The notes under the pieces are model-generated. The model searched no databases. It saw only the letters and a program-made list of their open reading frames with translations, and was not told where the DNA came from. Below, piece after piece: positions 4,023 to 41,204 of a stretch of DNA of 64,000 nt. Made by a program: the position numbers and the translations under genes. The DNA is from Rhodomicrobiaceae bacterium. GTDB lineage: Bacteria > Pseudomonadota > Alphaproteobacteria > Rhizobiales > Rhodomicrobiaceae. The stretch's first letter is position 1. Each line of letters begins with the position of its first letter. The DNA is taken from positions 7,092-71,091 of the forward strand of contig JBNKTW010000071.1 in NCBI GenBank assembly GCA_050298295.1, in the 5' to 3' direction.

Positions 4023-4204
4023 CCCTGGACAAGCGCGGCCTTTTGATTTTCATTATTCATTGCGTAGCTGAGGGCAGTTTCCGTGCCGCTTTTGCCTTTC
4101 TAGCCTTCGCCAAAGCAAACCGGGGGGTAGGGACTTGCGGCGCGCCAACGTGAGCGGAATACATCTATTCTTCCTTCCATAACAATAACGCGCGGAGGCA
4201 AATC

Positions 4205-12633: not shown

Positions 12634-13014
12634 CTAGAATGTATCGAGAGGCGTTCGCTCGCGAGCAGGCTGGATCTCCACGCTTTCGCCACAACCGCAC
12701 GCGCCAATCTGGTTCGGGTTGTTGAACACGAAGCGCGAGGAGAGCTTATCGGTCTTGTAATCCATCTCGGTGCCGAGCAGGAACAGGATCGCGGACGGGT
12801 CGATCAGGATGCGCACGCCCTTCTCCTCAACCACCTCGTCGTTCGCGCCGGCCTCCGCGGCATACTCGATGGTGTATTCCATACCCGCGCAGCCGCCCTT
12901 CTTCACGCCCAGCCGCAACCCCGCCACCGGCGTTTCCGGGCGCGCCATGATGGCTTTCAGGCGTTCGGCCGCAGCGTCGGTCAGGGTTATGATCTTCGGT
13001 CTGGGCCTCGTCAT
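12634..13014 (-). CDS. sufA: Fe-S cluster assembly A-type carrier (SufA/IscA/HesB)
   Basis: GGCAG and CGCGES motifs; last gene of the suf operon. Confidence 0.93.
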   Translation of the reverse strand: MTRPRPKIITLTDAAAERLKAIMARPETPVAGLRLGVKKGGCAGMEYTIEYAAEAGANDEVVEEKGVRILIDPSAILFLLGTEMDYKTDKLSSRFVFNNPNQIGACGCGESVEIQPARERTPLDTF

Positions 13015-13029
13015 TCAGTGCTTCCCCGG

Positions 13030-13521
13030 TCAGAATATGTTCAACGCGATGCGCGCCTCGTCTGACATGCGCGACGGGTCCCAAGGCGGCATGAACACCA
13101 GCGACACCCGCGCGACGCTCACGCCCCGCACCGCGTTGACCGCGCTTTCGACCCAGGCCGGCATGTCGCCCGCCACCGGGCAGCCGGGCGCGGTGAGCGT
13201 CATCTCGATGTCGACCTCGCGGTTATCGTTGATGTCCACCCTGTAGATGAGGCCCAGCTCGTAGATATCAACGGGGATCTCCGGGTCGTAGACCGTCTTC
13301 AGCGCCCCGATGATGTCCATGGTGAGCCGCTCCAGCTCCTCCTCGGGGATCGGGGCTCCGGACTTGAAATCCTTCGCCACCTCGACCGTGTGCTGGCAAG
13401 GCTCCGGCATATGATGGTCCGGGCCGTGGTGATGCGGCTCGTGGTGCGCGGGCGGAGCTTGCGGCGCATCCCAGGGCGCGGGGTCAACCAGCGTTTTTCT
13501 TTCGTTCATCGATTCCGTCAT
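13030..13521 (-). CDS. sufT: SUF system Fe-S assembly protein (SufT/DUF59) with His-rich N-terminus
   Basis: VYDPEIPVDIYELGLIY, MTLTAPGCPVA, PPWDPSRMS; ATG overlaps the sufS stop. Confidence 0.92.
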   Translation of the reverse strand: MTESMNERKTLVDPAPWDAPQAPPAHHEPHHHGPDHHMPEPCQHTVEVAKDFKSGAPIPEEELERLTMDIIGALKTVYDPEIPVDIYELGLIYRVDINDNREVDIEMTLTAPGCPVAGDMPAWVESAVNAVRGVSVARVSLVFMPPWDPSRMSDEARIALNIF

Positions 13522-14762
13522 TTGAAGATCCGCTCCGCTTTCAGTAATGCCTCCGCCAGTGCGTCCACCTCGGCGCGCGTATTGTAGAGCCCGAACGACG
13601 CCCTGCAAGTAGCCGTTACGCCAAAGCGGGCGAGCAACGGCTCCGCGCAATGCGTGCCGGCCCTGACCGCAATGCCCGATTGATCCAGGACCGTGGCGAT
13701 ATCGTGGGGGTGCGCGCCTTCCATGGTGAAGGAGACGATCGGCCCCTTGTCCGGCGCCTGGCCTATCATTCTGAGCGAATTGATTGGCCGCAGGCGCTCC
13801 TCCGCATAACGGCGCAGATCGTTCTCATGGGCGCGGACGCGGGCCTTGCCGATGCCGTCCACATAGTCGAGCGCTGCCGTGAGCGCCGCCGCCTCGGCGA
13901 TGGGCGGGGTGCCGGCCTCGAATCGGTAGGGTGGATCGTTGTAGCTGACCGTGTCCATTGTTACGGTCTCGATCATCTCGCCGCCGCCGAGGAATGGCGG
14001 CATGGCCTGAAGATGCTCCGCCTTGCCGTAAAGCGCGCCGATGCCACTCGGGCCGTATAGCTTGTGGCCCGTGATGGCGTAGAAATCGCAATCTATGTCC
14101 TGCACATCCACATCGAGGTGAACCGCGCCCTGGCTGCCGTCCACCAGCACATAAGCGCCATGCGCGTGCGCGATCCCGCACACCTCCTTCACCGGCGCGG
14201 AGGTGCCCAGCACGTTCGACATGTGCGTGATCCCGACCATCTTGGTGCGCGGGGTAATCGCGGCCTCGAAATCCTCCAGCCGGAACTCGCCGTCATCCGT
14301 TACAGGCACCCATTTGATGACGGCGCCGCGCCGCTCGCGATGGAAGTGCCACGGGATGATGTTGGAATGGTGCTCCATAACGGAGAGCACGATCTCGTCG
14401 CCGGGGCCTATCACCATGCCGCCGAAGGACTGCGCCGCGAGGTTAATCGCCTCGGTGGCGTTCTTCGTGAAGATGATTTGCTTCGGGTCCGGCGCGTTCA
14501 GGAACTTCGCCACCCGCGTGCGCGCGCCTTCATACGCATCGGTCGCGGCGTTGGCGAGGTAGTGTAAGCCCCTGTGCACATTGGCATATTCGTGCGCGTA
14601 CGCCTTCACCAGCGCATCGAGCACGGCCTGCGGCTTCTGCGCGCTTGCCGCGTTGTCGAGATAGACCAGCGGCTTGCCGTACACCTTGAGCGACAGCGCC
14701 GGGAAGTCGCGCCGGATGGCCTCCACGTCATAGGTGGCGGGCTCTTTTTCAATTACCGTCAT
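13518..14762 (-). CDS. sufS: Cysteine desulfurase SufS
   Basis: YLDNAASAQKP, HSNIIPW, TGHKLYGP, RAGTHCA motifs. Confidence 0.96.
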   Translation of the reverse strand: MTVIEKEPATYDVEAIRRDFPALSLKVYGKPLVYLDNAASAQKPQAVLDALVKAYAHEYANVHRGLHYLANAATDAYEGARTRVAKFLNAPDPKQIIFTKNATEAINLAAQSFGGMVIGPGDEIVLSVMEHHSNIIPWHFHRERRGAVIKWVPVTDDGEFRLEDFEAAITPRTKMVGITHMSNVLGTSAPVKEVCGIAHAHGAYVLVDGSQGAVHLDVDVQDIDCDFYAITGHKLYGPSGIGALYGKAEHLQAMPPFLGGGEMIETVTMDTVSYNDPPYRFEAGTPPIAEAAALTAALDYVDGIGKARVRAHENDLRRYAEERLRPINSLRMIGQAPDKGPIVSFTMEGAHPHDIATVLDQSGIAVRAGTHCAEPLLARFGVTATCRASFGLYNTRAEVDALAEALLKAERIFK

Positions 14763-14777
14763 GGTAGCACCCCGCTC

Positions 14778-14866
14778 TCATGGCCGGGCTTGACCCGGCC
14801 ATCCAGAGCAACATGGACAACGTTTGTTTTGAGGGGCTGGATGGCCGGGTCGGGCCCGGCCATGAC
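14778..14866. repeat. REP doublet, TCATGGCCGGGCTTGACCCGGCCATCCA family
   Basis: TCATGGCCGGGCTTGACCCGGCCATCCA ... TGGATGGCCGGGTCGGGCCCGGCCATGAC between sufD and sufS. Confidence 0.88.
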
Positions 14867-14867
14867 A

Positions 14868-16187
14868 CTAGGAAAGCCACGCATCCACCTTCTCCTGCAA
14901 CGCGGCGCGCAAGCTCTCGTTGCCGATCTTGTCCAGCGCCTCGCCGACGAACGCCGCTATCAAAAGCGCCCGCGCCTCCGGCTCTGGAAGGCCGCGCGCC
15001 CGCAGATAGAACATCAGATCCCCGTCAATCTGCCCCGCCGTCGAGCCGTGGCCGCACGCCACGTCATCGGCGAAAATCTCAAGCTCGGGCTTGGAGTCGA
15101 ACTCGGCATCGTTGGAGAGCAGGAGCGCATTGGCCATCTGCTTGCCGTCGGTCTTCTGCGCCCCGCGCTGCACGATCACCTTGCCCTGGAACACGCCGCG
15201 CGCGCGCCCGTCCAGCACGGCCTTCACCAGCTCGCGGCTTTCGCAAGCCTCCGCCGCGTGATCGACCACCAGCGTGAAATCCGCGTGCGCCCGCTCGCGC
15301 AGCATCATCGCGCCGGCGTAGTGGCAGCGCGCGTGCCGGCCGTCGAAACGGATGTGCATCTGCGCCCGCGTGAGCGCGCCGTCCACCGTCACTTGCAGCG
15401 GCTCGTAATGCGTCCGCTCCTCCAGCGCCACGGAAACCGAAGCAAGCTGCTTCGCGCCGCCGGTTACGCGGACATGGCTGACGCGGGCGTTGCACCCGGC
15501 CATAAGCCGCATATACGACAGCGCCTGGGACTCGCCCAAAGCCGCGTGCGTTTCGATGAGCTGGACTTCGGCGCGGTCGCCAATCGCAACCGTGCTGAGG
15601 GTTGCGGCAAGCTTCGGCGTCCCTTCACTCACAATGAAAATCAAATGGATGGGCTTTTCGAGCCGCGTGCCGGACGCAACCGAGAGAAGCGCGCCATCGG
15701 TTGCGAAGGCGGCGGCCAGCGCCGCAATCACATCGCGCCCAGCCCCGGCTTGAGTCCCGAGCCCGGCGCAGGAGACCTCTTCGAGCGCAAGGCGGAGCGG
15801 CTCGAACGTCACCCCAGGCGCATCCTGCACGCTCGAAAGATCGGGCCGGAACAGTCCGTCCACGAACACGGCGCGATAGGCGTCCAACTGGGCGAGCGCC
15901 TTGCCAATCGCGGCCTCGACGTTCACGCCGGCCGCCACCACGGGCGTAAGCCCCGCCAGCGGATGGACTTCCGGCATTAGCGTGCGCAGGTCGGTGTATT
16001 TCCATTCCTCGACGCGGCGGTGCGGCAGGCCCTGCGAGGCGAACAGATCCAGCGCCGCCTCGCGCTTTTCGCGCACGTTTGCGTGGCGCGCGCCGGGCAG
16101 CTTGTCCGCAACGCTGGCGTAGAGGTCGAGATAGCGCTGCTCCGCCGCAGTGGGCGCGGGGCGGGCTTTGGTTGGTTGGATCGTCAT
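14868..16187 (-). CDS. sufD: Fe-S cluster assembly protein SufD
   Basis: LPHRRVEEWKYTDL, VFQGKVIV, KPELEIFADDVACGHG. Confidence 0.95.
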   Translation of the reverse strand: MTIQPTKARPAPTAAEQRYLDLYASVADKLPGARHANVREKREAALDLFASQGLPHRRVEEWKYTDLRTLMPEVHPLAGLTPVVAAGVNVEAAIGKALAQLDAYRAVFVDGLFRPDLSSVQDAPGVTFEPLRLALEEVSCAGLGTQAGAGRDVIAALAAAFATDGALLSVASGTRLEKPIHLIFIVSEGTPKLAATLSTVAIGDRAEVQLIETHAALGESQALSYMRLMAGCNARVSHVRVTGGAKQLASVSVALEERTHYEPLQVTVDGALTRAQMHIRFDGRHARCHYAGAMMLRERAHADFTLVVDHAAEACESRELVKAVLDGRARGVFQGKVIVQRGAQKTDGKQMANALLLSNDAEFDSKPELEIFADDVACGHGSTAGQIDGDLMFYLRARGLPEPEARALLIAAFVGEALDKIGNESLRAALQEKVDAWLS

Positions 16188-16196
16188 CGCCGCCCC

Positions 16197-16952
16197 TTAA
16201 GCCGCTTCCGCGCCGTAGCCTGCGTAGCCGGATTCCTCAAGCTCCACCGCCAGCTCCTTGCCGCCCGAGCGCAAAATCTGTCCGCGAGCCATCACATGCA
16301 CCTTGTCCGGCACGATGTAGTTCAGGAGCCGCTGATAATGGGTGATGACGAGGATCGAGCGCTCCGGCGACCGCAGCCGGTTCACCCCCTCCGCGGCGAT
16401 GCGGATCGCGTCGATGTCGAGGCCGGAGTCCATCTCGTCGAGGATGAGCAGGCTGGGCTTGAGCAGCGCCATCTGCAGCACCTCGTTGCGCTTTTTCTCG
16501 CCGCCCGAAAAGCCGGTGTTCAGCGGGCGCTTCAGCATATCCATCGAAATGCCGAGTTCACCGGCCGCCGCCTTCACCACGCGCATGAATTCGGGGATGG
16601 AGATTTCGCTCTCGCCGCGCGCCTTGCGATGCGCATTCATGGCGGCGCGCAGGAAGGTCAGCGAGGCAACGCCCGGAATCTCTATCGGATATTGGAAGGA
16701 CAGAAACACGCCGGCGTGTGCGCGTTCGTCGGGACTCATTTCCAGGAGGTTCTTGCCGTCCCAGGTGATCGAACCGCCCGTGACCTCGTAATCCTCCTTG
16801 CCGGAAATGACATAGGACAGCGTGGACTTGCCCGAGCCATTCGGCCCCATGATCGCGTGCACCTCGCCTCTGGGCACGGTGAGGCTGAAACCCTTCAGTA
16901 TTTCCTTGCCGTCGATTTCGGCGCGCAGGTCTTTGATTTCGAGCATTCCCAT
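16197..16952 (-). CDS. sufC: Fe-S cluster assembly ATPase SufC
   Basis: MGPNGSGKST, FQYPIEIPG, FSGGEKKRNE, LDEMDSGLD. Start at MGMLEIK (16952) or at 16946. Confidence 0.96.
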   Translation of the reverse strand: MGMLEIKDLRAEIDGKEILKGFSLTVPRGEVHAIMGPNGSGKSTLSYVISGKEDYEVTGGSITWDGKNLLEMSPDERAHAGVFLSFQYPIEIPGVASLTFLRAAMNAHRKARGESEISIPEFMRVVKAAAGELGISMDMLKRPLNTGFSGGEKKRNEVLQMALLKPSLLILDEMDSGLDIDAIRIAAEGVNRLRSPERSILVITHYQRLLNYIVPDKVHVMARGQILRSGGKELAVELEESGYAGYGAEAA

Positions 16953-16954
16953 TC

Positions 16955-17215
16955 CTATCTTTTTTCTTCGTCCGCGCCCCAGCGCCACCGCCAGGCCCCG
17001 TCCGTTTTCTTCCAGGATATCCAAATAAATAGCACCGTGGCGGCGGCCGTGGCCGTGAGCGCGATGAGGCGCGCCTGCCCGCCGCCGAAGCCGGCTTCGA
17101 GCATCTTCATAATCCCTATGAGCGCGGCCACGAAGGCAACGGTCAGCAGCCATCCCTGCCATGTCGCAGGCGTGGCGCCGTAACCATAGCGTTTTGGGCG
17201 GAACCAGTAGCTCAC
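16955..17215 (-). CDS. Small membrane protein (WFRPKRYGYGATPxxWxGW type), unknown function
   Basis: GTG start overlapping the upstream stop; two hydrophobic helices; Trp-rich ends. Confidence 0.7.
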   Translation of the reverse strand: MSYWFRPKRYGYGATPATWQGWLLTVAFVAALIGIMKMLEAGFGGGQARLIALTATAAATVLFIWISWKKTDGAWRWRWGADEEKR

Positions 17216-17433
17216 AATGGCTTCCTCCAGCGCCGTATCGGGCCAACGCCCCAGAAAAAGGCCCGGATGAACAGCGCAACGGTGACGGCCAGGGTTGCGA
17301 ACCGGGTCAACGGCCAGCCGCTGAACAGGCCGTGGGCCAGCGCGAAGGCCAGCACCGCGAACAGCGCCGCCGCGATCCAGGCTTTCCAGTCCCATGCCGG
17401 CTCGAAATCCTTGCGCCTATATCCGTAGCTCAT
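17212..17433 (-). CDS. Small hypothetical membrane protein
   Basis: 73 aa, two hydrophobic segments, translationally coupled on both sides. Confidence 0.65.
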   Translation of the reverse strand: MSYGYRRKDFEPAWDWKAWIAAALFAVLAFALAHGLFSGWPLTRFATLAVTVALFIRAFFWGVGPIRRWRKPL

Positions 17434-17789
17434 GAGGCCCTCCGCACCAAAACGAGACCCAGGATTAGAGTAAACGGCAGAACGATGAGATGCCGGACGG
17501 CGGCGGAGTAGCCCACGGCTTTGCCCGCAATCGCGAAATCGCCGAGCGGCACGATGGAGGCCAGCAGCAGCACCACGCCCAGCGGCTTCGCGGCGCGCAT
17601 CGCCGCCAGCGCGATGACAGCGAGCCCTATGGCCAGCTCGCGCGTGCCCATCAGTGGCGTGAGCCCGATATCGGCCAGATGCGACGGGTCGATCCCGAAC
17701 GCTTGCACCGCGCCGAACGGCGAGACGATCAGCGCGGCGCCGATCAGGCTCAGAAACGCACCCAGCAATGCAGCAAGTATCAACGCCAT
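17430..17789 (-). CDS. DUF4267-like membrane protein
   Basis: Four hydrophobic helices with GxRELxxG and PxGD motifs. Confidence 0.7.
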   Translation of the reverse strand: MALILAALLGAFLSLIGAALIVSPFGAVQAFGIDPSHLADIGLTPLMGTRELAIGLAVIALAAMRAAKPLGVVLLLASIVPLGDFAIAGKAVGYSAAVRHLIVLPFTLILGLVLVRRAS

Positions 17790-18199
17790 TATTGATATTT
17801 CCCTTTCAGCATCGTCCCCTCTCCCACAGGGAGAGGGACAGGGTGAGGGGTTGCACCCTTCGTTATTCTGACAATCTCAGCCAAGACCCCTTCGATATTC
17901 TCCAGCACTTCGTTATTCCAGAACCGCAGAACCTGAATTCCGGCCCCCTGCAGGACTGCGGTCCTATTCATATCCCATTCCGTCTGGCTGGCGTGCTGGC
18001 CGCCGTCGAGTTCCACAACCAGGTTCGCGGCTTCGCAGAAGAAATCCGCGTAGAAGCCAAAGAGCGGAACCTGGCGGCGGAACTTCAGGCCTTCGAGCTG
18101 GCGATTTCGCAGGTGCCGCCAGAGCTTACGCTCAGCGTCAGTGCCCGCGCCGCGTAACTCGCGGGCTCCGCCTGTTTTACGCTTTGCCAGACTCTCCAA
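17789..18199 (-). CDS. DUF559 / Vsr-like endonuclease domain protein
   Basis: ARELR, TDAERKLW, KFRRQ, YADF, VVELDGGQH, VLRFWNNEV motifs. Confidence 0.92.
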   Translation of the reverse strand: MESLAKRKTGGARELRGAGTDAERKLWRHLRNRQLEGLKFRRQVPLFGFYADFFCEAANLVVELDGGQHASQTEWDMNRTAVLQGAGIQVLRFWNNEVLENIEGVLAEIVRITKGATPHPVPLPVGEGTMLKGKYQ

Positions 18200-18241
18200 C
18201 CCTGTAACCCCTCACCCTGTCCCTCTCCCACTGGGAGAGGG
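17817..18241. mobile_element. Putative DUF559 element bounded by 36-bp hairpin inverted repeats
   Basis: Left 17817-17852 (reverse complement) and right 18206-18241 both read AACCCCTCACCCTGTCCCTCTCCC-NNN-GGGAGAGGG, 34/36 identical. Mobility is inferred. Confidence 0.65.
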
Positions 18242-18251
18242 CACGCTGTTG

Positions 18252-19739
18252 CTAACCTACGCTGCCTTCGAGGCTGATGGAGATGAGTTTCTGCGTTTCG
18301 GCCAGGAACTCCATCGGGAGCTGTTGCAGCACGTCGCGGACGAAGCCGTTCACGATCAGCGTCACCGCCTCCTCTTCGGAAAGCCCGCGCTGCAGGCAAT
18401 AGAAGAGCTGGTCATCGGAGATTTTCGAGGTGGTTGCCTCGTGCTCGAACTGGGCGCTGGCGTTCTTCGCCTCGATATAGGGCACGGTGTGCGCACCGCA
18501 TTTATCGCCGATCAAGAGGCTGTCGCATTGCGTGAAGTTGCGGGCGCCGGTAGCGCGGCGGTGCGCCGAGACGAGCCCGCGATAGGTGTTGTCCGAGTGG
18601 CCGGCCGAGATGCCCTTCGAGATGATGCGGCTCGACGTGTTCTTGCCGAGATGCACCATCTTGGTGCCGCTGTCCACCTGCTGGTAGCCGTTCGACACGG
18701 CGATGGAATAGAACTCGCCCCGGCTGTTGTCGCCGCGCAGGATGCAGCTCGGATATTTCCAGGTGATGGCAGAGCCGGTCTCGACCTGCGTCCAGGAAAT
18801 CTTCGAGTTGCGGCCCCGGCAATCGCCGCGCTTGGTCACGAAATTATAAATACCGCCCTTGCCTTCCTTGTCGCCGGGATACCAGTTCTGCACGGTCGAG
18901 TATTTGATCTCGGCGTCGTCGAGCGCGATCAGCTCGACCACGGCGGCGTGAAGCTGGTTCTCGTCGCGCATCGGCGCGGTGCAGCCTTCGAGGTAGCTCA
19001 CATAAGCGCCCTTGTCCGCGATGATGAGTGTGCGCTCGAACTGGCCGGTCTGCTTCTCGTTGATGCGGAAGTAGGTGGAAAGCTCCATCGGGCAGCGCAC
19101 GCCTTCGGGCACGTAGACGAAGGAGCCGTCGGAGTAGACCGCCGAGTTGAGCGTTGCGAAATAGTTGTCGCTGGTGGGCACCACGCTGCCGAGATACTTG
19201 CGCACCAGTTCGGGATATTCGCGCACGGCCTCGGAGATCGAACAGAAAATCACGCCGGCCTTGGCCAGCTCTTCCTTGAAGGTCGTCACCACGGAAACGC
19301 TGTCGAACACCGCGTCCACCGCCACGCGCGGCCCATCCACGCGCGCGCCCTCGACGCCCGCAAGCACGGCCTGCTCCTTCAGCGGAATGCCAAGCTTCTC
19401 ATAGGTGCGCAGAAGCTCGGGATCGACCTCGTCCAGGCTCTTGGGCGCGGCCGCCGTTTTCGGCGCGGCGTAATAATACAGGTCTTCGTAGTCGATCTTC
19501 GGATAGTGCACGCGCGCCCATTTGGGCTCTTCCATCGTGCGCCAGCGCTGGTACGCCTCAAGCCGCCATTCGAGCAGCCATTCGGGCTCGCCCTTCTTGG
19601 CGGAGATGAAGCGGACGATGTCCTCGCTGAGGCCCTTCGGCGCTTTGTCGCTTTCGATATCGGTCGTGAAGCCGTATTTGTACTTGTCGACGTCAATCTC
19701 GTGGACGCGATGGACTGTCTCCGTTACTGGCGTAGCCAT
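18252..19739 (-). CDS. sufB: Fe-S cluster assembly protein SufB
   Basis: [38 protein letters not shown]. Confidence 0.97.
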
Positions 19740-19786
19740 GTTTTCTCCTATGGCTCATCGCAGGCCCGCCCGCGATGTTACAAACG

Positions 19787-20980
19787 TTACACAGCAGGCC
19801 CGGCTTCATAACTTCCGCCTGCACTGCTGCAAATCCCGTGCCGTGCCTCCCGGCGTTCGCAAATCCTTGAAAGCACGGTTAAAAACCGTTCGATATCCGC
19901 TTCCGCCGTGGTCCAGCCGGTGGAAACGCGGATCGCGCTGCGGGCGAGTTCCTTCGGCACGCCCATCGCCGCCAGCACATGCGACCGCTCAACCTTGCCC
20001 GAAGAGCAGGCCGAGCCCGAGCTTACCGCGACTCCCTCCAGGTCGAAGGCGATGAGCATGGTCTCCGCGCTCCTGCCCGGCACCGCGAAGCAGGTGGTGT
20101 TCGGCAGCCGGCCGGCGCCTTCCGCCGCAGCGCCCGTAATACCCGCCGAAGGCAAGCCGAAAATGACCGCATCCGGCGCAATGTCACGAATGCCGCATTC
20201 CAGCTTGTCCCGCAAGGCCTTGGTTCTGGCCGCAAATCCGGCCTGCTCCGCTACGGCTACTTCCAGCGCGGCGGCCAGCCCGGCAATCGCCGGCACGTTC
20301 TCCGTGCCCGAACGCTGGCGGCGCTCCTGCCCGCCGCCCTTCAGCAGTGGCGCCGGCGCGAAACCGGGATCGCGGACGATCGCGGCCCCCGCGCCCTTCG
20401 GCCCGCCGAACTTGTGCGCCGAGAAGAACAGCACATCCGCATCCTTGAGTTCGTGAAGCGGCAAGCGCCCGATGGCCTGCACCGCGTCGCAGATCAGCAC
20501 AGCCCCTTTCGAATGCACCGCTTTCGCGATTTCCGCAATCCGCTGGATAACGCCAGTCTCGTTATTCGCCGCCTGCCCTGCCACAACCGACCCTGGAGCA
20601 GCATCAAGCGTGGCCAGGTCAAGCGTTCCGTCTTCAAGGACGGGAACGGCGCGGCACCTGTCTTGCACGAAGCGATGGCCGGAGAGAACGCAAGGGTGCT
20701 CGACAGCGGAGACCGCGAGCGTTTCATCGCCGCGCGGCTGCAAGAGCCAATTCGCGGCCTCGGTTCCGCCGCTGGTGAAATAAACGCCGGCCGCGTCAGC
20801 CTCGAACAGCGCGGCAACCGTCTCGCGCGCGTCTTCGACGATCCGGCGCGCGGCGCGGCCCTCGCCGTGGATCGACGAGGGGTTGCCGGCGCAATCGAAC
20901 GCCGCAATCATCGCGGCGCGTGCCTCCGGGCGCAGCGGCGATGTTGCATTATGGTCGAGATAGGCGCGCGGCGGCCTCAT
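19787..20980 (-). CDS. Cysteine desulfurase, NifS/IscS-like
   Basis: YLDHNATSP, FTSGGTEA, SAHKFGGPKG, RSGTEN, SGSACSSG. ATG overlaps the Rrf2 gene stop. Confidence 0.93.
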   Translation of the reverse strand: MRPPRAYLDHNATSPLRPEARAAMIAAFDCAGNPSSIHGEGRAARRIVEDARETVAALFEADAAGVYFTSGGTEAANWLLQPRGDETLAVSAVEHPCVLSGHRFVQDRCRAVPVLEDGTLDLATLDAAPGSVVAGQAANNETGVIQRIAEIAKAVHSKGAVLICDAVQAIGRLPLHELKDADVLFFSAHKFGGPKGAGAAIVRDPGFAPAPLLKGGGQERRQRSGTENVPAIAGLAAALEVAVAEQAGFAARTKALRDKLECGIRDIAPDAVIFGLPSAGITGAAAEGAGRLPNTTCFAVPGRSAETMLIAFDLEGVAVSSGSACSSGKVERSHVLAAMGVPKELARSAIRVSTGWTTAEADIERFLTVLSRICERREARHGICSSAGGSYEAGPAV

Positions 20981-21450
20981 GGCGCACCCTCCGCTCCCAC
21001 CGCGAGCTTGCACAGCGAAAGCTCCTCCCGCTGCGGCACCGAATAACGGCCGGAAACCACGTCGCCCAGGGTCGCGGTGGCGAGGAACTGCTCGATATGC
21101 GCGGTAAGCGCGTCCCAGAGAAAATGCGTACTGCAGCGATTTTCGGCCACGCAGCCGTTCTCGCGCTCGTTCTCGCACCGCGTCATCTTGAGCGGTTCGT
21201 CCACCGCCGACATGATCTCGCAAATGCTGATCTGATAAGCGTCGCGGCCCAGCACATAGCCGCCGCCCGGCCCGCGCACCGATTGAACCAGTCCGCCGCG
21301 CCGGAGCTTCATGAATAGCTGCTCCAAATAGGCGAGCGATAGCGAAAGCTTCGCCGCCACGTCCCCAAGCGAGCGCGGCTTCGAATCGCCTTGCTTAGCG
21401 ATCTCGGCCATCGCCATGACGGCATAACGCCCCTTGGTGCTCAGCAGCAT
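20977..21450 (-). CDS. iscR: Rrf2 family regulator, IscR-like
   Basis: LSTKGRYAV, YLEQLF, SVRGPGGGY; three Cys plus His (C..C..CSTH); heads the suf operon. Confidence 0.9.
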   Translation of the reverse strand: MLLSTKGRYAVMAMAEIAKQGDSKPRSLGDVAAKLSLSLAYLEQLFMKLRRGGLVQSVRGPGGGYVLGRDAYQISICEIMSAVDEPLKMTRCENERENGCVAENRCSTHFLWDALTAHIEQFLATATLGDVVSGRYSVPQREELSLCKLAVGAEGAP

Positions 21451-21586
21451 TTACAACGCCTCCTCAAGCCGCCGCGTGAAGGTAATGGAAATTTGCGTTC
21501 GCGTTATGATATGCGTGGTCGAATCCCGCTCTTTGCCCGAATCAGGTTCGTCCAGGCTCGCGGTTCTCCAGAGCTTAATAGATATG

Positions 21587-21611
21587 ATTTCCGACTGCCG
21601 CAGTCAAGTAT
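21587..21611. promoter_or_regulatory. IscR type-1-like operator upstream of iscR
   Basis: Minus strand ATACTTGACT-GCGGC-AGTCGGAAAT, a GACT-N5-AGTC dyad overlapping a TTGACT -35-like hexamer. Confidence 0.7.
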
Positions 21612-21659
21612 TCCGCCGCAAGCATGGCGGCAGTCTCCGCCAAGAAGAGGTTCCAGCAT

Positions 21660-22385
21660 ATGCCTGAAGTGATCATCAACGGGCCGGCCGGCCGCATCGA
21701 AGGACGCTACCATCACGAGTCCAAGCCCGGCGCTCCGATCGCGATCATCCTTCACCCGCACCCGCAATTTGGCGGGACCATGAACAATCAGATCGTCTAC
21801 AGCCTTTATTACACCTTCGTGAAGCGGGGCTATTCGGTGCTGCGCTTCAATTTCCGGGGCGTGGGCCGCAGCCAGGGCATGTTCGATCAGGGGCCGGGAG
21901 AACTTTCCGACGCGGCGACCGCGCTCGACTGGCTCCAGCTCGCCAATCCGGACGCGAAATCCTGCTGGATCGCGGGCGTTTCCTTTGGCGCCTGGATCGC
22001 CATGCAGCTCCTGATGCGCCGGCCGGAGATCGACGGCTTCATCTCGGTGGCGCCGCCTGCCAATCTCTACGATTTCAGCTTCCTGGCGCCGTGCCCCTCC
22101 TCCGGCCTGATGATCAACGGCGACCGCGACCGCGTCGTTCCGGTCAGCGCCGTGAAAACGCTAGTGGACAAGCTCAAGACGCAGCGCGGCATCGTGGTCA
22201 GCCACGAGATCGTGCCCGGCGCGAACCACTTCTTCGAGGACAAGGTCGAAGACCTTACCCTGGCGGTGGAGCGCTATCTCGAAAAGCGCGCCCAGATCCA
22301 GGCAAAACCGGGCCGCAAGGAAAAGCTGCCGCCGCCCCCGCCGGTGGAGGAAATCGAGGACGTGGAGCTGGACGAGGAGGAATAG
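21660..22385 (+). CDS. Alpha/beta hydrolase conserved next to iscR in Alphaproteobacteria
   Basis: HPHPQFGGTMNN, AGVSFGAW, GANHFF. Confidence 0.92.
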   Translation: MPEVIINGPAGRIEGRYHHESKPGAPIAIILHPHPQFGGTMNNQIVYSLYYTFVKRGYSVLRFNFRGVGRSQGMFDQGPGELSDAATALDWLQLANPDAKSCWIAGVSFGAWIAMQLLMRRPEIDGFISVAPPANLYDFSFLAPCPSSGLMINGDRDRVVPVSAVKTLVDKLKTQRGIVVSHEIVPGANHFFEDKVEDLTLAVERYLEKRAQIQAKPGRKEKLPPPPPVEEIEDVELDEEE

Positions 22386-22644
22386 CCGGCGTGCGCTGGA
22401 AAGGCGAAGTTTGGAATGCGTAGCGGGAAGGGCCGCTGAGCGGATAGCCAAAGACAGCGCCTCTACTTCGCAGCCTTTGCGGGGTGTGCGGCGGCGCGAT
22501 CCGGCCTCGCCCCGCCGGTCAGGCGCGGATGACGGTGCGTTTGCGGCGTCCCTCCAGGTTAAGGAACCGTATATTTCGCGTAAAGCCGCATCATGGTAAA
22601 TTCCGGTATGGTAAACGCGCGAATCCCGCGCGCTAAATATCCGA

Positions 22645-22728
22645 ATTTCGGCGCATTTTTACTTGTTTTCGCGCGATTTCTACGGTTCAAAAAACCCGTT
22701 AAATATAATTTAATATTTGAAATTAACC
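22645..22728 (-). repeat. 84-bp intergenic element, copy A (GGTTAAT-N15-ATATTTAA plus phased A-tracts)
   Basis: Ungapped manual alignment to 39669-39752 and 55649-55733. Confidence 0.8.
22698..22713 (-). promoter_or_regulatory. CtrA consensus box
   Basis: Minus strand TTAA-ATTATAT-TTAAC = TTAA-N7-TTAAC. Confidence 0.6.
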
Positions 22729-22973
22729 ATGATTGGCGTCTCAAATCTCGTGCGTGGCGGTGCCGGCGCTAAAATAACAGCAGCGATATCAATAACATAG
22801 CAGCTTAATCGTTATTCAAGACAAACCTGCTATATTTCTTCAAAATCGAGCGCACCCATTCCAACGCTGGAAAAGGGGGCGGGAAAACTGTAAAGACGGT
22901 TAAGGTAGCGTTACCTGGACAGGCTGCGATACGGCCGGGCAGGCCTGACGCCAGGTTAGCGATTGGGGGCTTT

Positions 22974-24119
22974 ATGGCGTACAACCTGCTTGTTCTCGGG
23001 CCGATGCAGCATCGCGTTGGCGACAACATCCTCCGCGATTCCAACACCGCGCGCATCGGCGAAATTCTCGGCCAGATGTCGCAGGCGCTTGGCGAGGGCG
23101 GGCGGCAGCCCTTCCGCGTCGTGACGCCGGAAGACCCCAGCCAGCCGGCTATCGTCGAACTCGTCTTGAGCGAGATCGAGAAGGCCGATCTCGTGGTTCT
23201 CGACCTGACGGGCAGCCGGCCGAGCGTGGCCTACGAAGCCGGAATCATCCACGCGCTTGGCATTCCGCACATCTTCGTCACCGAAGACGAGGAGACTTCG
23301 TTCTACTTCTCGTCGGTGCGCGTGATCCGCGGCTTGCAGCTTGGCTCCGATTTCAATCCCGCCAATCCAGGGCCGAGCCATGGCGAGCTGTTCGCCAGGC
23401 TCAAGACGTTCCTGAGTGACGCCAACGCCAGGGCCGATATGGCCGGCAATATTCTCACCGCTCATTTCGAAGGCCTGCCCATCATTGATCTGGCCGGGCC
23501 TGCCGGGATGGCCGCGAGCTATTACACCAACGCGGTGCGGCGCTTCATCCGGCCCGGCGGTTTCGCGGGCAGGGAATGCAAGCTCATGCTGAAGGAAGAG
23601 CGATCCGCGCGCTTTGGCAAAGGAACCGTCACATCCACGCGCACGGTTCCCGCGACCGTCAAGGCGCTTATTGCCGTGGAGCCGCCCGCCAAGCTTGTCA
23701 GGAGCTTTTTCGAGGACGACAAGGCGCTTAAGGCGGAGCTGAAGGGACTGGGCATCGAGCTGGAGCGGGCAACAATCGCCGGCGATGATCCGCTCGACAA
23801 GCGCGACTATGGCGGCTGGTTCGACGCGAAGGGCATCGCGCGCGGCGCCACGGTCTGCATCGAGATCCCGACTATTGTTTACCCTTTGACGGAGTCGCCG
23901 AGGATTTTACGGCTCAAGAAACACCGGGCCAAGTTCGAGGGCGAGCAGCGGCAAATCATGCAGGAGGTGGAGGAGCGCGCGCTCGAAAAACTGCTGGCCT
24001 CGTTCAAACGCAACCTTCTTTATCACATTGATATGGAACACGAAGCCACCAAGAGCGGTTTCCATTACGTGCCGCTGTCCGGCCTCCCCGCCCTGCTGCG
24101 GCAGGTGGGAGCGCTGTAG
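22974..24119 (+). CDS. Nucleoside 2-deoxyribosyltransferase-like domain fused to a prokaryotic STING-like domain
   Basis: N-term IEKADLVVLDLTGSRPSVAYEAGIIHALGIP (NDT-like, YE). C-term PAGMAASYYTNAV, KRDY, EIPTIV, EERALEKLLASFKRNL (STING-like motifs in the expected order). Confidence 0.75.
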   Translation: MAYNLLVLGPMQHRVGDNILRDSNTARIGEILGQMSQALGEGGRQPFRVVTPEDPSQPAIVELVLSEIEKADLVVLDLTGSRPSVAYEAGIIHALGIPHIFVTEDEETSFYFSSVRVIRGLQLGSDFNPANPGPSHGELFARLKTFLSDANARADMAGNILTAHFEGLPIIDLAGPAGMAASYYTNAVRRFIRPGGFAGRECKLMLKEERSARFGKGTVTSTRTVPATVKALIAVEPPAKLVRSFFEDDKALKAELKGLGIELERATIAGDDPLDKRDYGGWFDAKGIARGATVCIEIPTIVYPLTESPRILRLKKHRAKFEGEQRQIMQEVEERALEKLLASFKRNLLYHIDMEHEATKSGFHYVPLSGLPALLRQVGAL

Positions 24120-24371
24120 CCGCGGGGGCTGACCCATGCAAAAAAAGCATGGCTTGGGTGTCACAGCAAAGTGCCTAAATTATATGCAATTTGGCTGGGC
24201 TGTTTACATCTCTGTATACAATGCAATAAGATTGCGCTGACCGGTTTGAAAATTTCTGGTTAAAAGCCGGAGGATCATCCGCCGCGAATAAGATATTGTG
24301 CAGTGCATCGGGGCCGCAGAGTGAAGGAACAGCAGCAGGGCCGGCCAGCTCAGACACGGCCGGGAAGCGAC

Positions 24372-25343
24372 GTGTTGGACCTGAACCTGAGGTCTCTCGA
24401 CACCTTCGTGCAAATAGCGGAAAGCGGCGGCATGAGTTCCGCGGCCCGCCGGATGAAGCTTACTCAGTCGGCTGTCAGCCAGATCATCCAGAGTCTTGAG
24501 CGCTCGCTCGATGTGGCTCTCTTCGACCGCAAGGTCCGCCCCATCGCCCTGACGCCTTCGGGTGTTATACTTCTGGAGAAAGCCCGCGGGTTGCTGCTTG
24601 CAGCGCGCGAGGCGATCAGGAGCGTGAAGGAGCCGGAAACGGCGGCTTTCCCAAAGCTCAATCTTTGCCTGGTCGAGAGTATCACGGCCACCATCGGGCC
24701 AGGTTTTGCCCGGGATATTCAAGGGTTTGCCGATCTTTGGTCGGTGCATACGGGCTTGCCTAGCCAGCATAGCCGCGCGCTGCTTGCGCGGGAGGCGGAC
24801 ATCGTGCTGACCCCAGATCCCCTGGAAGAACACCCGAATATCGAGCGGTACGAGATCCTGAAAGAGCCGTTCTTCATTGCCTTGCCGAAGGATTTTGCCG
24901 GGGATTCAGTGAACCTGCCGGCGCTTGCCGCGCAGCACGACCTCATCCGGTTCAGCGCGCGCACTATGATGGGACGCCAAGTGGGGCGGCATCTGGAGCG
25001 GCTCAAGGCGGACACCACCGGCCGGCTGGAATTCGACAGCGCCACCGCTATCCTGGCGATGGTTACGGCCGGCCTCGGCTGGGCCGTCATCACCCCCCTC
25101 TGCGCGCTCCTGGGGCGGGCCTTCTGGTCCGAGGTCAGGTTTGTGCCGATGCCCGGTCCGGCGCTTCACCGCCGGCTCTACGTCGTCGCCCGGCATGGAG
25201 AGTTTGGCGACATCCCAAGGCGGATCGCCAATGCCGCCATCGAGCGGAACCGGAAATCCTTGCACAATCATTTCGCCGATTATCCGTGGATCCTCGAAGG
25301 TTGCACAATCCCCGATTTCATCGGCACCACCAGCCGAACCTGA
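24372..25343 (+). CDS. LysR family transcriptional regulator
   Basis: HTH (SSAARRMKLTQSAVSQ, LFDRKVRPIALT) plus substrate-binding domain; GTG start approximate. Confidence 0.92.
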   Translation: MLDLNLRSLDTFVQIAESGGMSSAARRMKLTQSAVSQIIQSLERSLDVALFDRKVRPIALTPSGVILLEKARGLLLAAREAIRSVKEPETAAFPKLNLCLVESITATIGPGFARDIQGFADLWSVHTGLPSQHSRALLAREADIVLTPDPLEEHPNIERYEILKEPFFIALPKDFAGDSVNLPALAAQHDLIRFSARTMMGRQVGRHLERLKADTTGRLEFDSATAILAMVTAGLGWAVITPLCALLGRAFWSEVRFVPMPGPALHRRLYVVARHGEFGDIPRRIANAAIERNRKSLHNHFADYPWILEGCTIPDFIGTTSRT

Positions 25344-39998: not shown

Positions 39999-41204
39999 CT
40001 AAGATTCAGGATTTAATGTTCGGGCCAGACGGAAACCCGCATTGCCGCCGCGGCCGACTGGGGCGCCCCAGATGCGGCCCGCCGCGCGGAGGAACCGTGG
40101 ATCGCTGACCCAGGAACCGCCGCGAAGAACACGGAGACTACTGTCTCCCGTTGTCCAGGCGTCACCAGTGCTTTTCAAGCTTTCGGGCTTATCCCAGTAA
40201 CTCCCATGCCAGACATCCTCGCACCATTCCCAGACATTTCCGTGCATGTCGTGCAAGCCGAAGCCGTTGGGCTGCTTCCCGCCCACGGGATGGGTTTCAC
40301 CGCCTGCGTTGGACGAATACCAGGCATGGCGATCCAGATCGCTTTCGTTACCGCCGAAGGAGTAAGCTGCCTCGCTTCCCGCACGGCAAGCGTATTCCCA
40401 TTCCGCCTCACTCAAGAGACGGTAAGGCTGGCCAGTCTTGTCCGAAAGCCACTTTATGTAAGCCTGCGCGTCGTTCCATGAGACGTTGATGACAGGCCGC
40501 CGCCCGTGCCCCCAGCCTCTGTCGCCTGGCTTATGAGAGACGCCCCCCGCCGCAACCGCGGCGTCCCATTCGTCGAACGTCACCGGATACTTTCCCACCG
40601 CGAAGGCTCGTTGGATCGTCACCTTGTGGCGCGGGCGCTCCCTGTCCTCTCCTTCGCCGTCCTTGGAACCCATCATGAAGCTGCCCGCCGGGATCACAAC
40701 CATCTCCGGCCCTGCGTCAAAATCGCGGAAGCTCTTGCCCGGCTTCGGCTTCTGGCGCTCAACTTCCGGCGCGGGCGTTTCCGCTTTGGCCACGGCTTCG
40801 GCGTACACCACTTCGGCATGATTGCTGGGAGCGATCAGCCTCCGCGCCAGCGCGGCGAAGATCTTCGCGCGGTCGCTCACAAGCGTGATGTTCCCCGACG
40901 TGAACGGCATCGGCACCTTGCGCGGATCGAGCGTTTCTTCGCGCACCTGCAAAAGCTTGCCGTGCGCGTCCCCCTCGCTCGCCTCGGACCAGACCCAGCG
41001 AGACGTCACCGAATGCTCCGCCCAGATCACGATCACGGCCTTCGCCGCCGCGATCTGGGTGCGGATCGTCTCGGGGAAGAACCCGTCGTCCGGCAGAAGG
41101 TTCGTATCCCACCAGGTGGTGTAGCCTTCGGCTTCAAGGTCACGCGCAAGCTCCTTGGTGAGCCGGTCGTGCTTCTTCGAGTATGAGATAAAAATATCGG
41201 CCAT
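39999..41204 (-). CDS. TIR domain + formylglycine-generating enzyme (SUMF1/CLec) domain protein; probable DGR-type target
   Basis: DIFISYS..WVWSEA (TIR with Glu); GPEMVVIPAGSFMMG, RLLSEAEWEYACRAG, DMHGNVWEW, RGGSW..GFRLAR. Confidence 0.9.
   Translation of the reverse strand: MADIFISYSKKHDRLTKELARDLEAEGYTTWWDTNLLPDDGFFPETIRTQIAAAKAVIVIWAEHSVTSRWVWSEASEGDAHGKLLQVREETLDPRKVPMPFTSGNITLVSDRAKIFAALARRLIAPSNHAEVVYAEAVAKAETPAPEVERQKPKPGKSFRDFDAGPEMVVIPAGSFMMGSKDGEGEDRERPRHKVTIQRAFAVGKYPVTFDEWDAAVAAGGVSHKPGDRGWGHGRRPVINVSWNDAQAYIKWLSDKTGQPYRLLSEAEWEYACRAGSEAAYSFGGNESDLDRHAWYSSNAGGETHPVGGKQPNGFGLHDMHGNVWEWCEDVWHGSYWDKPESLKSTGDAWTTGDSSLRVLRGGSWVSDPRFLRAAGRIWGAPVGRGGNAGFRLARTLNPES

What the first reader, a model, noticed from the sequence alone, without database searches (positions are those of the whole stretch)
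22974..24119. Orphan NDT-STING fusion: a STING-like receptor with a deoxyribosyltransferase/nucleosidase-like effector and no cyclase
Seen: the C-terminal ~210 aa carry, in order, PAGMAASYYTNAV, LIAVEPPAKL, DKRDY, IEIPTIV and EERALEKLLASFKRNLL. From memory these parallel bacterial STING motifs (PSTxLAxGYFxNF, IIIPxxL, the conserved R-x-Y dinucleotide-contacting motif, DxPTTL, EERELxNFKxxL). The N-terminal ~150 aa carry ADLVVLDLTGSRPSVAYEAGIIHALGIP, the signature of NDT-like N-glycosidase domains, with the catalytic Glu. Established: characterised bacterial STINGs are TIR-STING and TM-STING CBASS effectors encoded next to a c-di-GMP-making CD-NTase. This gene sits alone between an alpha/beta hydrolase and a LysR, with no CD-NTase in 64 kb. 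Inference: an uncharacterised cyclic-dinucleotide-gated nucleotide/NAD glycosidase, activated in trans by a distant CD-NTase or by host diguanylate cyclases.
Basis: partly seen in the sequence, partly recalled or inferred. Interest (0 to 1): 0.9.

Follow-up and report, generated by a model that had tools for sequence, protein, structure and literature searches.

The report
Cyclase-less NDT-like–STING fusion protein
This gene really does fuse a STING-type nucleotide receptor to a nucleoside-deoxyribosyltransferase-like enzyme with no signal-making cyclase nearby, and it belongs to a sizeable family that has been catalogued by computation but, as far as I could find, never tested.

Summary
The ORF (22974..24119 +, 381 aa) and every quoted motif are present. 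Both domain calls hold. The single sequence scores just below Pfam's thresholds. The family profile, however, matches solved bacterial STINGs (FsSTING E 8e-8) and Rcl/DNPH1 (E 9.5e-6). An AlphaFold model (pLDDT 86) matches LrSTING and NDT/DNPH1 by Foldseek (prob 1.0).

An exhaustive profile search found 151 representatives. All 112 full-length ones carry the same NDT-like N-terminus, and Tyr87-Glu88 are the only invariant columns. No CD-NTase was found in the window or beside 15 diverse relatives, and no GGDEF motif in the window or any fetched locus, so lacking a cyclase is a family trait.

In Rhodomicrobium the gene is syntenic (suf cluster, then the gene, then LysR) and under purifying selection (dN/dS about 0.1). 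In other lineages it sits next to SLOG-SLATT or TrkA_N-RyR proteins, often among defence genes.

The pocket keeps the class-I R-x-Y lid and a Glu for the guanine-reading Asp. It replaces the stacking Phe/Leu with Ala and carries an LrSTING-like long-lid insertion, so the ligand is uncertain.

The architecture is not new: deoxyribohydrolase-STING fusions are attributed to Burroughs & Aravind 2020. I found no experimental work. Most likely it is a nucleotide-gated N-glycosidase.

The parts
22974..24119 (+). Complete ORF, 381 aa: NDT-like (DrHyd-superfamily) domain fused to a prokaryotic STING domain
22974..23444 (+). N-terminal NDT/DNPH1-like Rossmannoid domain (res 1-157)
   Evidence: PF05014 res 56-108; Rcl/DNPH1 profile hits; Foldseek NDT/DNPH1 prob 1.0, TM to 0.66; local N-term profile hits all full-length relatives
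22998..23006 (+). G9-P10-M11 loop after strand 1; aligns with the GSI of the Rcl GSIRGG loop
   Evidence: G 105/113, P 100/113, M 107/113; alignment to Rcl
23232..23237 (+). Tyr87-Glu88, aligned with the GYELG nucleophile Glu of Rcl/DNPH1; predicted catalytic Glu
   Evidence: the only invariant columns in 113 relatives; alignment to 2klh/4fyh
23466..24116 (+). C-terminal prokaryotic STING domain (res 165-381)
   Evidence: PF20300 res 177-346; FsSTING 6wt4 E 8e-8 and LrSTING 8hwi 2e-6; Foldseek 8hwi E 1.2e-5 prob 1.0
23499..23549 (+). STING helix alpha-1 (res 176-192). Y183 and N186 are invariant in the clade. A187 occupies the position of the base-stacking Fs F92 / Pc F171
   Evidence: Ko et al. 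2022
23562..23678 (+). Insertion (res 197-235) modelled as a long beta-hairpin, at the same site as the autoinhibitory 'long lid' of LrSTING
   Evidence: strands 200-211 and 218-235, pLDDT 71-97; best Foldseek hit is LrSTING 8hwi; alignment; Hou et al. 2023
23796..23822 (+). Lid segment D275-K-R277-D-Y279-G-G-W-F: a class-I RX(Y/F) motif
   Evidence: R 30/32 and F/Y/W 31/32 in the clade; motif classes from Ko et al. 2022
23859..23876 (+). I-E297-I-P299-T300-I. E297 aligns with the guanine-N2-reading Asp (Fs D169 / Pc D252). T300 falls in the canonical PTT motif that I assign to the phosphate-contacting Thr pair of ElSTING; that assignment is inferred, not aligned
   Evidence: D 98/113, E 14/113; P 104/113; alignment
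22386..22973 (.). 588-bp spacer upstream with an AT-rich stretch; no Rfam family and no riboswitch; GGGGG Shine-Dalgarno-like run 6 nt before the ATG. Probable own promoter region and inversion breakpoint
24303..25343 (+). LysR-family regulator, co-directional. Conserved downstream neighbour in 6 Rhodomicrobium relatives; no demonstrated functional link

Best explanation
A stand-alone, ligand-gated N-glycosidase built on the TIR-STING plan with a different enzyme head. Shown: the C-terminal half is a bacterial-type STING domain and the N-terminal half an NDT/DNPH1-like domain whose Tyr-Glu motif is invariant; the fusion is a conserved family; no nucleotide cyclase is encoded near it. Inferred: STING dimers bind a 3'3' cyclic dinucleotide. 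The R-x-Y lid and the Glu at the Asp252 position make c-di-GMP the leading candidate, but Ala at the stacking position and a long autoinhibitory-type lid argue for altered affinity or a different ligand. Binding would close the lids and polymerise the dimers. That would juxtapose the N-terminal domains, which in NDT, DNPH1 and the retron-Ec86 effector work only as dimers, and switch on cleavage of an N-glycosidic bond. The substrate would be NAD+ or a (deoxy)nucleotide. I slightly favour NAD+ because relatives are paired with SLOG, TrkA_N and RyR proteins, which are NAD/ADPR-type ligand binders. The outcome would be growth arrest or a secondary signal. The ligand must come from elsewhere in the genome: host diguanylate cyclases or a distant CD-NTase.
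For: Domain identity. Family-wide fusion with invariant Y87-E88. Purifying selection on both domains, dN/dS 0.07-0.19. Class-I lid motif, N186 and E/D297 conserved. Long-lid insertion matching LrSTING. No CD-NTase or GGDEF in cis. Precedents: c-di-GMP-induced filamentation activating the fused TIR NADase, and the NDT-like retron Ec86 effector with a catalytic Glu and obligatory dimerisation. Some relatives sit among defence genes such as Cas13a, type I restriction enzymes, RT and TIR.
Against: No binding or activity data exist. The alpha-1 stacking residue (Phe/Leu in c-di-GMP-binding STINGs) is Ala or Ser in this clade. The DNPH1 Asp69-equivalent position is Val64 here (alignment), so the chemistry may differ from DNPH1/NDT. 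A high-affinity c-di-GMP-triggered toxin would be hard to tolerate in an alphaproteobacterium that uses c-di-GMP routinely; this rests on my own knowledge, and the genome outside the window was not seen. In Rhodomicrobium the gene behaves like a stable chromosomal gene next to the suf cluster, not like a mobile defence gene. The window protein is absent from PADLOC models and from viral contigs.
Confidence: 0.5

Rival explanations
1. Signal-generating sensor rather than terminal effector, in the manner of Thoeris. The NDT-like domain would convert NAD+ or a nucleotide into a small messenger. That messenger would be read by the SLOG, TrkA_N or RyR domain of a membrane partner (SLATT/DUF4231). 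In this genome the partner would be lost or encoded elsewhere.
For: 11 relatives' loci carry an adjacent SLOG/DprA-like (+SLATT/DUF4231 or +TrkA_N) or TrkA_N+RyR protein, in Alphaproteobacteria, Bacteroidota, Comamonadaceae and Chloroflexota. DrHyd and SLOG domains are discussed as signal makers and readers in NAD+-derived signalling (PMC9503650; Thoeris SLOG).
Against: No partner homologue is in the 64-kb window (tblastn at 1e-4), nor beside the core Rhodomicrobium, Reyranella (L002), L005 or L007 copies. Yet the gene stays under strong purifying selection there.
Confidence: 0.2
2. Domesticated receptor for the cell's own second messenger. STING would sense physiological c-di-GMP, or another endogenous nucleotide, and tune a non-lethal nucleotide or NAD N-glycosidase used in housekeeping or stress metabolism.
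For: Conserved synteny iscR-nifS-sufBCDS-sufA, then NDT-STING, then lysR on one strand in 7 Rhodomicrobium genomes, with lysR seen in 4 of the 7. Amino-acid identity of 76-93% is comparable to SufC, SufS and SufA. dN/dS is about 0.1. No cyclase and no partner in cis. The weakened stacking position and the extra lid could lower affinity into a physiological range.
Against: The closest relative (L011, 93%) and L016/L018 have lost the suf linkage, and the window itself has it inverted, so the linkage looks positional. A 49%-identical copy in Rhodomicrobium sp. Az07 lies in a Cas13a/IS66/RT island with a SLOG-SLATT-like neighbour. No c-di-GMP riboswitch or other regulatory link was found.
Confidence: 0.15
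3. Classical CBASS-type effector served in trans by a CD-NTase encoded far away in the same genome.
For: The STING fold and the class-I lid motif. The genome outside the 64-kb window was not available.
Against: None of 15 diverse relatives has a CD-NTase within about 6 kb (PADLOC, none at E<1e-8). Precomputed Pfam for 8 contexts shows no SMODS. A family-wide absence argues against a dedicated cyclase.
Confidence: 0.08
4. The STING-like domain no longer binds cyclic dinucleotides. It would serve as an oligomerisation scaffold or sense something else, such as a phage protein or another nucleotide.
For: Ala/Ser replaces the stacking Phe/Leu. The lid region is poorly conserved across the wider family: column 278 is mostly a gap and column 279 varies. 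Hou et al. note that some STING fusions lack the conserved motifs.
Against: N186, R277, the aromatic at 279, E/D297, P299 and T300 are all conserved in the clade. That pattern is hard to explain without a nucleotide pocket.
Confidence: 0.07

Closest known systems
TIR-STING (Cap12) of CBASS, e.g. SfSTING, PcSTING, MySTING
   Same: Same plan: an N-terminal Rossmannoid N-glycosidase-type enzyme of about 150 aa fused to a C-terminal bacterial STING domain. Class-I RX(Y/F) lid motif, and an acidic residue at the guanine-N2 position.
   Different: The enzyme head is NDT/DNPH1-like, not TIR (TIR_2 in only 1 of 113 relatives). No adjacent CD-NTase. The stacking Phe/Leu is replaced by Ala. Found in c-di-GMP-using Alphaproteobacteria as well as Bacteroidota. 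A profile built from this family's STING domain retrieved essentially only NDT-STINGs among its best 150 hits.
LrSTING (Larkinella arboricola, PDB 8hwi), the 'long-lid' STING
   Same: Best structural match. Both have an insertion after alpha-1 that forms an extra beta-hairpin over the pocket. In LrSTING this hairpin is autoinhibitory.
   Different: LrSTING is a TIR-STING. The hairpin here is longer (about 36 residues) and unrelated in sequence.
Deoxyribohydrolase(DrHyd)-STING fusions catalogued by Burroughs & Aravind 2020 (as cited in PMC10732462)
   Same: Apparently the same domain architecture.
   Different: The original paper was not held, so membership of their exact set could not be checked. 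No experiments were found.
Retron-Eco1/Ec86 NDT-like effector
   Same: An NDT-like domain used as a defence effector, with a catalytic Glu (E106) and obligatory dimerisation within a filament.
   Different: It is controlled by the retron RT-msDNA complex, not by a STING domain. No detectable close sequence relationship was tested.
DNPH1/Rcl and nucleoside 2-deoxyribosyltransferases
   Same: Fold, and the G-Y-E-L-G-type nucleophile motif.
   Different: The Asp69 (Rcl) equivalent is not conserved (Val64, alignment). From my reading of the sequence, not a printed alignment, no Tyr stands at the Tyr13-equivalent position either. These enzymes are housekeeping and carry no sensor domain.
Thoeris (TIR ThsB plus SLOG-containing ThsA)
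   Same: Only for relatives: a TIR/DrHyd-class enzyme gene next to a SLOG-domain protein.
   Different: No SLOG partner in this window. Here the enzyme itself carries a STING sensor.

Membership tests
Prokaryotic STING domain (Pfam PF20300) | Sequence-profile match | tested here: met
   The window protein alone scores 24.8 bits, below the 27.1 cutoff. However, 106 of 113 relatives match (best 4.3e-17), and the family profile hits FsSTING 6wt4 at 8e-8, LrSTING, CgSTING, PcSTING and SfSTING.
Prokaryotic STING domain (Pfam PF20300) | STING fold | tested here: met
   AF2 model pLDDT 86. Foldseek 8hwi E 1.2e-5, prob 1.0, target TM 0.57-0.62; 6wt6 also hit.
Class I (c-di-GMP-specific) bacterial STING, sensu Ko et al. 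2022 | [quoted passage not shown] | tested here: met
   R277-D-Y279. R in 30/32 and an aromatic in 31/32 of the clade. The HMM alignment of this loop is offset by 2, so the assignment is motif-based.
Class I (c-di-GMP-specific) bacterial STING, sensu Ko et al. 2022 | Asp contacting guanine N2 (Pc D252 / Fs D169) | tested here: inconclusive
   Glu297 here. Asp in 98/113 and Glu in 14/113 of the family. The change is conservative but untested.
Class I (c-di-GMP-specific) bacterial STING, sensu Ko et al. 2022 | Phe/Leu on alpha-1 forming the bottom layer of the four-layer stack (Pc F171, My L169, Fs F92) | tested here: not met
   Ala187. Ala 27/32 and Ser 4/32 in the clade; Phe in 81/113 of the wider family.
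Class I (c-di-GMP-specific) bacterial STING, sensu Ko et al. 2022 | Binds c-di-GMP and oligomerises | not testable with these tools
   Needs ITC, DSF, EMSA and SEC or EM.
CBASS operon (CD-NTase plus Cap effector) | CD-NTase gene adjacent to the effector | tested here: not met
   No CD-NTase among 52 window genes, nor among 122 neighbours of 15 relatives' loci at E<1e-8. No SMODS in precomputed Pfam of 8 contexts.
NDT/DrHyd superfamily (Pfam PF05014; DNPH1/Rcl) | Sequence-profile and fold match | tested here: met
   The window protein scores 23.4 bits, below the 28.8 cutoff. 60 of 113 relatives match. The family profile hits Rcl 2klh at 9.5e-6 and NDT 2a0k at 0.0097. Foldseek NDT/DNPH1 prob 1.0, TM up to 0.66.
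NDT/DrHyd superfamily (Pfam PF05014; DNPH1/Rcl) | Catalytic nucleophile Glu | tested here: met
   E88, preceded by Y87, is invariant in 113/113 and aligned with the GYELG Glu of Rcl.
NDT/DrHyd superfamily (Pfam PF05014; DNPH1/Rcl) | DNPH1 auxiliary catalytic residues (Rcl Tyr13, Asp69) | tested here: not met
   Asp69 aligns with Val64 in the Rcl alignment. For Tyr13 I inferred the equivalent position by counting back from the GSI/GPM alignment and saw no Tyr there; it is not a printed alignment. So this is not a DNPH1 orthologue, and the substrate is open.
NDT/DrHyd superfamily (Pfam PF05014; DNPH1/Rcl) | N-glycosidase or transferase activity | not testable with these tools
   Needs enzyme assays.
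DrHyd-STING fusions (Burroughs & Aravind 2020) | Deoxyribohydrolase domain fused to prokaryotic STING | tested here: met
   Architecture shown here. The existence of the class is taken from a citation in PMC10732462. The original paper is not held.

The most novel reading that the evidence does not exclude
STING here is not part of a cyclase-effector defence pair at all. One possibility is a vertically inherited receptor that lets a c-di-GMP-rich alphaproteobacterium read its own second messenger and switch an NAD/nucleotide N-glycosidase. The other is that the family defines a cyclase-less two-gene immune module (NDT-STING plus SLOG-SLATT or TrkA_N-RyR) in which the STING-linked enzyme makes the signal and the membrane partner executes, with the Rhodomicrobium copy being a partner-less derivative.
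Probability: 0.25. Interest if true: 0.85.

Novelty: new variant of a known kind. Interest (0 to 1): 0.62.

Why it matters
Every experimentally studied bacterial STING I could find is a TIR- or TM-STING CBASS effector activated by a neighbouring CD-NTase. This family pairs STING with a different enzyme and consistently has no cyclase. It also occurs in bacteria that, from my own knowledge, use c-di-GMP as a housekeeping messenger. Working it out would answer three questions. What ligand does a STING with an altered pocket read? Can STING act outside CBASS, on endogenous messengers or upstream of SLOG-SLATT effectors? What do NDT-like domains cleave when used in conflict systems? It would also widen the picture of how STING was wired before animals acquired it.

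Tried and rejected
- Searching PDB sequences with the single protein, the 32-sequence profile (A1) and the 12-sequence STING-only profile (A2) gave no STING hit. Only the 113-sequence profile (A3) reached them.
- PADLOC and NCBIfam hold no model for this protein.
- Rfam found no c-di-GMP riboswitch or any other RNA family in the window or in the upstream spacer.
- No RNA-seq run holds the gene, and DNA runs are metagenomes only, so transcription could not be checked.
- The viral contig scan found no relative.
- Morehouse 2020 and Burroughs & Aravind 2020 are not held.
- My ORF caller produced an apparent 1082-aa fusion in L029. It was an artefact: the region is the antisense of a TrkA_N-RyR gene.
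- I rejected the idea that the N-terminal domain is a TIR. TIR_2 matches only 1 of 113 relatives, and in that protein (P0170) the TIR is an extra inserted domain.
- I rejected suf-operon membership as a functional link. The linkage is inverted in the window and absent in L011, L016 and L018.
Full report

The window holds an ATG-initiated ORF at 22974..24119 on the + strand, encoding 381 aa. The upstream gene (21624..22385) is an alpha/beta hydrolase and the downstream gene (24303..25343) a LysR regulator. The gene has the composition of its surroundings (GC 0.63; GC3 0.80).

**2. Domain identity**

On its own the protein scores just under Pfam's thresholds:
- prok_STING PF20300: 24.8 bits against a cutoff of 27.1, residues 177-346.
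- Nuc_deoxyrib_tr PF05014: 23.4 bits against 28.8, residues 56-108.

PADLOC and NCBIfam have no model for it. Family-level evidence removes the doubt.
- A word-indexed search found 58 clusters of relatives, many carrying both Pfam hits.
- All 32 aligned relatives hit PF20300, and 26 hit PF05014.
- An exhaustive HMM search of 1.84 billion representatives with the STING-domain profile gave 151 proteins at E<=1e-3.
- A profile of the N-terminal 157 residues matched all 112 full-length representatives.
- Of 113 aligned members (those 112 plus the window protein), 106 hit PF20300 (best 4.3e-17), 60 hit PF05014, and only one has a TIR.
- The 113-sequence profile matches solved bacterial STINGs: FsSTING 6wt4 at E 8e-8, LrSTING 8hwi at 2e-6, and also CgSTING, PcSTING and SfSTING. 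It matches Rcl/DNPH1 at 9.5e-6 and NDT 2a0k at 0.0097.
- An AlphaFold2 model (mean pLDDT 86) finds LrSTING 8hwi first (E 1.2e-5, prob 1.0, target TM 0.57-0.62). Next comes oyster TIR-STING 6wt6, then a long run of NDT and DNPH1 structures (prob 1.0, TM up to 0.66).

The refutation criterion "C-terminal fold unrelated to STING" is therefore not met.

**3. Residue-level anatomy**

*Enzyme head.* Across 113 relatives the only invariant columns are Tyr87 and Glu88. They align with the GYELG motif that holds the nucleophile Glu of Rcl/DNPH1. G9-P10-M11, D72, D77, H93, G96 and Y111 are nearly invariant. The Rcl Asp69 equivalent is Val64 (alignment), so this is not a DNPH1 orthologue and the substrate is open.

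*STING pocket.* The alignment to FsSTING and the structural literature give the following map:

| Window residue | Equivalent in solved STINGs | Conservation |
|---|---|---|
| N186 | phosphate-contacting Asn of the GYxxNF helix | invariant in the clade |
| A187 | stacking Phe/Leu (Fs F92, Pc F171, My L169) | Ala/Ser in 31 of 32 clade members; Phe in 81 of 113 of the wider family |
| R277-D-Y279 | class-I RX(Y/F) lid motif | R 30/32, aromatic 31/32 |
| E297 | guanine-N2-reading Asp (Fs D169, Pc D252) | Asp 98/113, Glu 14/113 |
| P299-T300 | part of the PTT motif | P 104/113 |

Residues 197-235 are an insertion modelled as a long beta-hairpin. It sits where LrSTING carries its extra "long lid", which Hou et al. 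showed to be autoinhibitory. That explains why LrSTING is the best structural hit.

The pocket is therefore class-I-like in three determinants, lacks the fourth, and has an extra lid. c-di-GMP is the leading candidate ligand but is far from certain.

**4. Context in the window**

PADLOC scans of 52 window genes found no CD-NTase. The SspA/DndA hits are among the 42 genes; I take them to be the suf cysteine desulfurases, and the mad3/mad8/AriA hits probably the ABC ATPase SufC, but the call does not say which genes matched. No ORF with a GG[DE]EF motif exists in the window or in any fetched locus. No riboswitch or other Rfam family is present.

The 588-bp upstream spacer is partly AT-rich and has a G-rich Shine-Dalgarno-like run. 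"Orphan" is correct for these 64 kb. The rest of the genome was not available.

**5. Context in relatives**

Precomputed annotations of eight contexts and a scan of species-representative genomes (27 loci) were analysed.

*Within Rhodomicrobium.* Seven genomes show the same co-directional order: iscR - nifS - sufB - sufC - sufD - sufS - sufA - NDT-STING. The alpha/beta hydrolase lies upstream of iscR on the opposite strand where the locus reaches that far. lysR follows the gene in 4 of these 7 (L012, L014, L017, L019). In the window the hydrolase-to-sufA block is inverted but lysR is kept. The closest relative (L011, 93%) keeps only lysR. Two others lie elsewhere.

Amino-acid identity is 76-93%, in the range of the neighbouring SufC, SufS and SufA. 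Pairwise dN/dS is 0.09-0.14 for the whole gene and 0.07-0.19 for each domain. The gene is functional and mostly vertically inherited in this genus.

*Outside that clade.* Neighbour clustering with Pfam/PADLOC and tblastn shows recurrent adjacent partners:
- Proteins with a SLOG/DprA-like N-terminus, joined to SLATT/DUF4231 membrane modules or to TrkA_N: L001/L023, L025, L028, L006, L010/L021, L027, L026.
- TrkA_N + RyR proteins: L029, L030, L031, L032.

Several loci lie among defence genes. Examples are Cas13a, IS66 and RT in Rhodomicrobium sp. Az07, and type I restriction enzymes, TIR and BrxL-like genes elsewhere. A PADLOC scan of 122 neighbours from 15 loci shows no CD-NTase at E<1e-8. No partner homologue is in the window, and no relative is on viral contigs.

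Lacking a cyclase is therefore a property of the family, not of this locus.

**6. Mechanism**

The best-supported reading is a ligand-gated N-glycosidase on the TIR-STING plan. In TIR-STINGs, c-di-GMP closes the lid, the dimers polymerise, and the fused TIR NADase switches on. NDTs, DNPH1 and the NDT-like retron-Ec86 effector need dimerisation, and in Ec86 a catalytic Glu, for activity. Oligomerisation-driven activation of the NDT-like head is thus mechanistically natural.

The substrate is inferred. SLOG, TrkA_N and RyR are ligand-binding domains associated with NAD+/ADPR-type molecules (and my own knowledge). Their presence next to relatives tilts me towards NAD+, but (deoxy)nucleotides are equally compatible with the fold.

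What is shown: the architecture, the conserved catalytic-type residue, the pocket residues, the selection, and the absence of a cyclase in cis. What is inferred: ligand identity and source, oligomerisation, substrate and physiological outcome.

Rivals:
- A Thoeris-like arrangement in which the enzyme makes a messenger for the SLOG/RyR partner, with this copy partner-less.
- A domesticated receptor of endogenous c-di-GMP controlling a non-lethal enzyme.
- A trans-acting distant CD-NTase.
- A STING-like scaffold that no longer binds cyclic dinucleotides.

**7. Comparison with what is known, and novelty**

[quoted passage not shown] They cite Burroughs & Aravind 2020 for this. Hou et al. [quoted passage not shown] Public pipelines already name relatives "nucleoside 2-deoxyribosyltransferase" or "STING domain-containing protein". 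The architecture itself is therefore not a discovery.

In the searchable library I found no experimental study of it. The original 2020 paper and Morehouse 2020 were not held.

What appears to be new here, subject to those two unread papers:
- The size and coherence of the family: at least 112 clusters at 50% identity, with an invariant Tyr-Glu.
- The consistent lack of any cyclase.
- The recurrent SLOG-SLATT or TrkA_N-RyR partners.
- The Ala at the stacking position together with a long lid in the alphaproteobacterial clade.
- The housekeeping-like synteny in Rhodomicrobium.

I file it as a new variant of a known kind (STING-effector fusion) and not as a CBASS member, because the defining adjacent CD-NTase was tested and not found.

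**8. Verdict**

Interest is moderate to high (0.62). The gene is a good experimental target rather than a categorical novelty.

Noticed in passing
window 39999..41204 (-): 401-aa fusion of a TIR_2 domain (res 4-91) with an FGE-sulfatase / formylglycine-generating-enzyme-like domain (res 166-395). PADLOC matches cover only the TIR part. This is a conflict-system-type architecture sitting between an Lrp/AsnC-like regulator gene and a KpsF-like gene; those two neighbour names are my own reading of the translations, not an HMM scan.
   Followed up: partly
window 55951..59769 (+): 1272-aa CHAT protease-like + NACHT/nSTAND1 NTPase + TPR-repeat protein, a bacterial STAND/NLR-like architecture.
   Followed up: partly
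window about 59900..63000: Low-GC island (45-50% against about 62% elsewhere). It holds a 392-aa LPG_synthase_C-like protein (59877..61055 -) that overlaps by 4 nt a 243-aa XRE-type HTH protein (61052..61783 -). It is probably horizontally acquired and lies directly after the STAND gene.
   Followed up: partly
window 12634..22385 compared with L012-L015, L017, L019, L020: The block from the alpha/beta hydrolase through iscR-nifS-sufBCDS-sufA is inverted in the window relative to seven Rhodomicrobium relatives. One breakpoint falls in the 588-bp partly AT-rich spacer (22386..22973) just upstream of the NDT-STING gene.
   Followed up: partly
window 17789..18199 (-): A 136-aa ORF that I read as DUF559/endonuclease-like (from the translation, not scanned) lies inside the suf cluster between sufB and sufC. 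It is also present at that position in relatives L013, L014, L017 and L019, at 51-79% identity.
   Followed up: no
P0170 (490 aa, metagenomic relative): A triple architecture: an NDT-like domain with the YE motif, a complete TIR_2 domain inserted at residues 135-254, then STING (344-484). It is the only TIR-bearing protein among the best 150 hits of the STING-domain profile.
   Followed up: partly
L001 7922..9976, L025 433..2370, L028 3659..5450, L006 6780..8621, L010 5359..7155, L027 8377..9798, L026 11693..14455; L029 about 2700..4403 (-), L030 11758..14142, L031 8126..9910, L032 954..2738: Recurrent partner genes next to NDT-STING relatives. One set has SLOG/DprA-like N-termini joined to SLATT/DUF4231 or TrkA_N. 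The other set is TrkA_N + RyR proteins. The 645-684-aa versions have no Pfam match at all. This may be a cyclase-less two-gene module.
   Followed up: partly
L002/L003/L004 (Reyranella), 8918..9949 in L002: An S1-P1 nuclease gene lies 52 bp upstream of the NDT-STING relative, co-directional, on three contigs.
   Followed up: no
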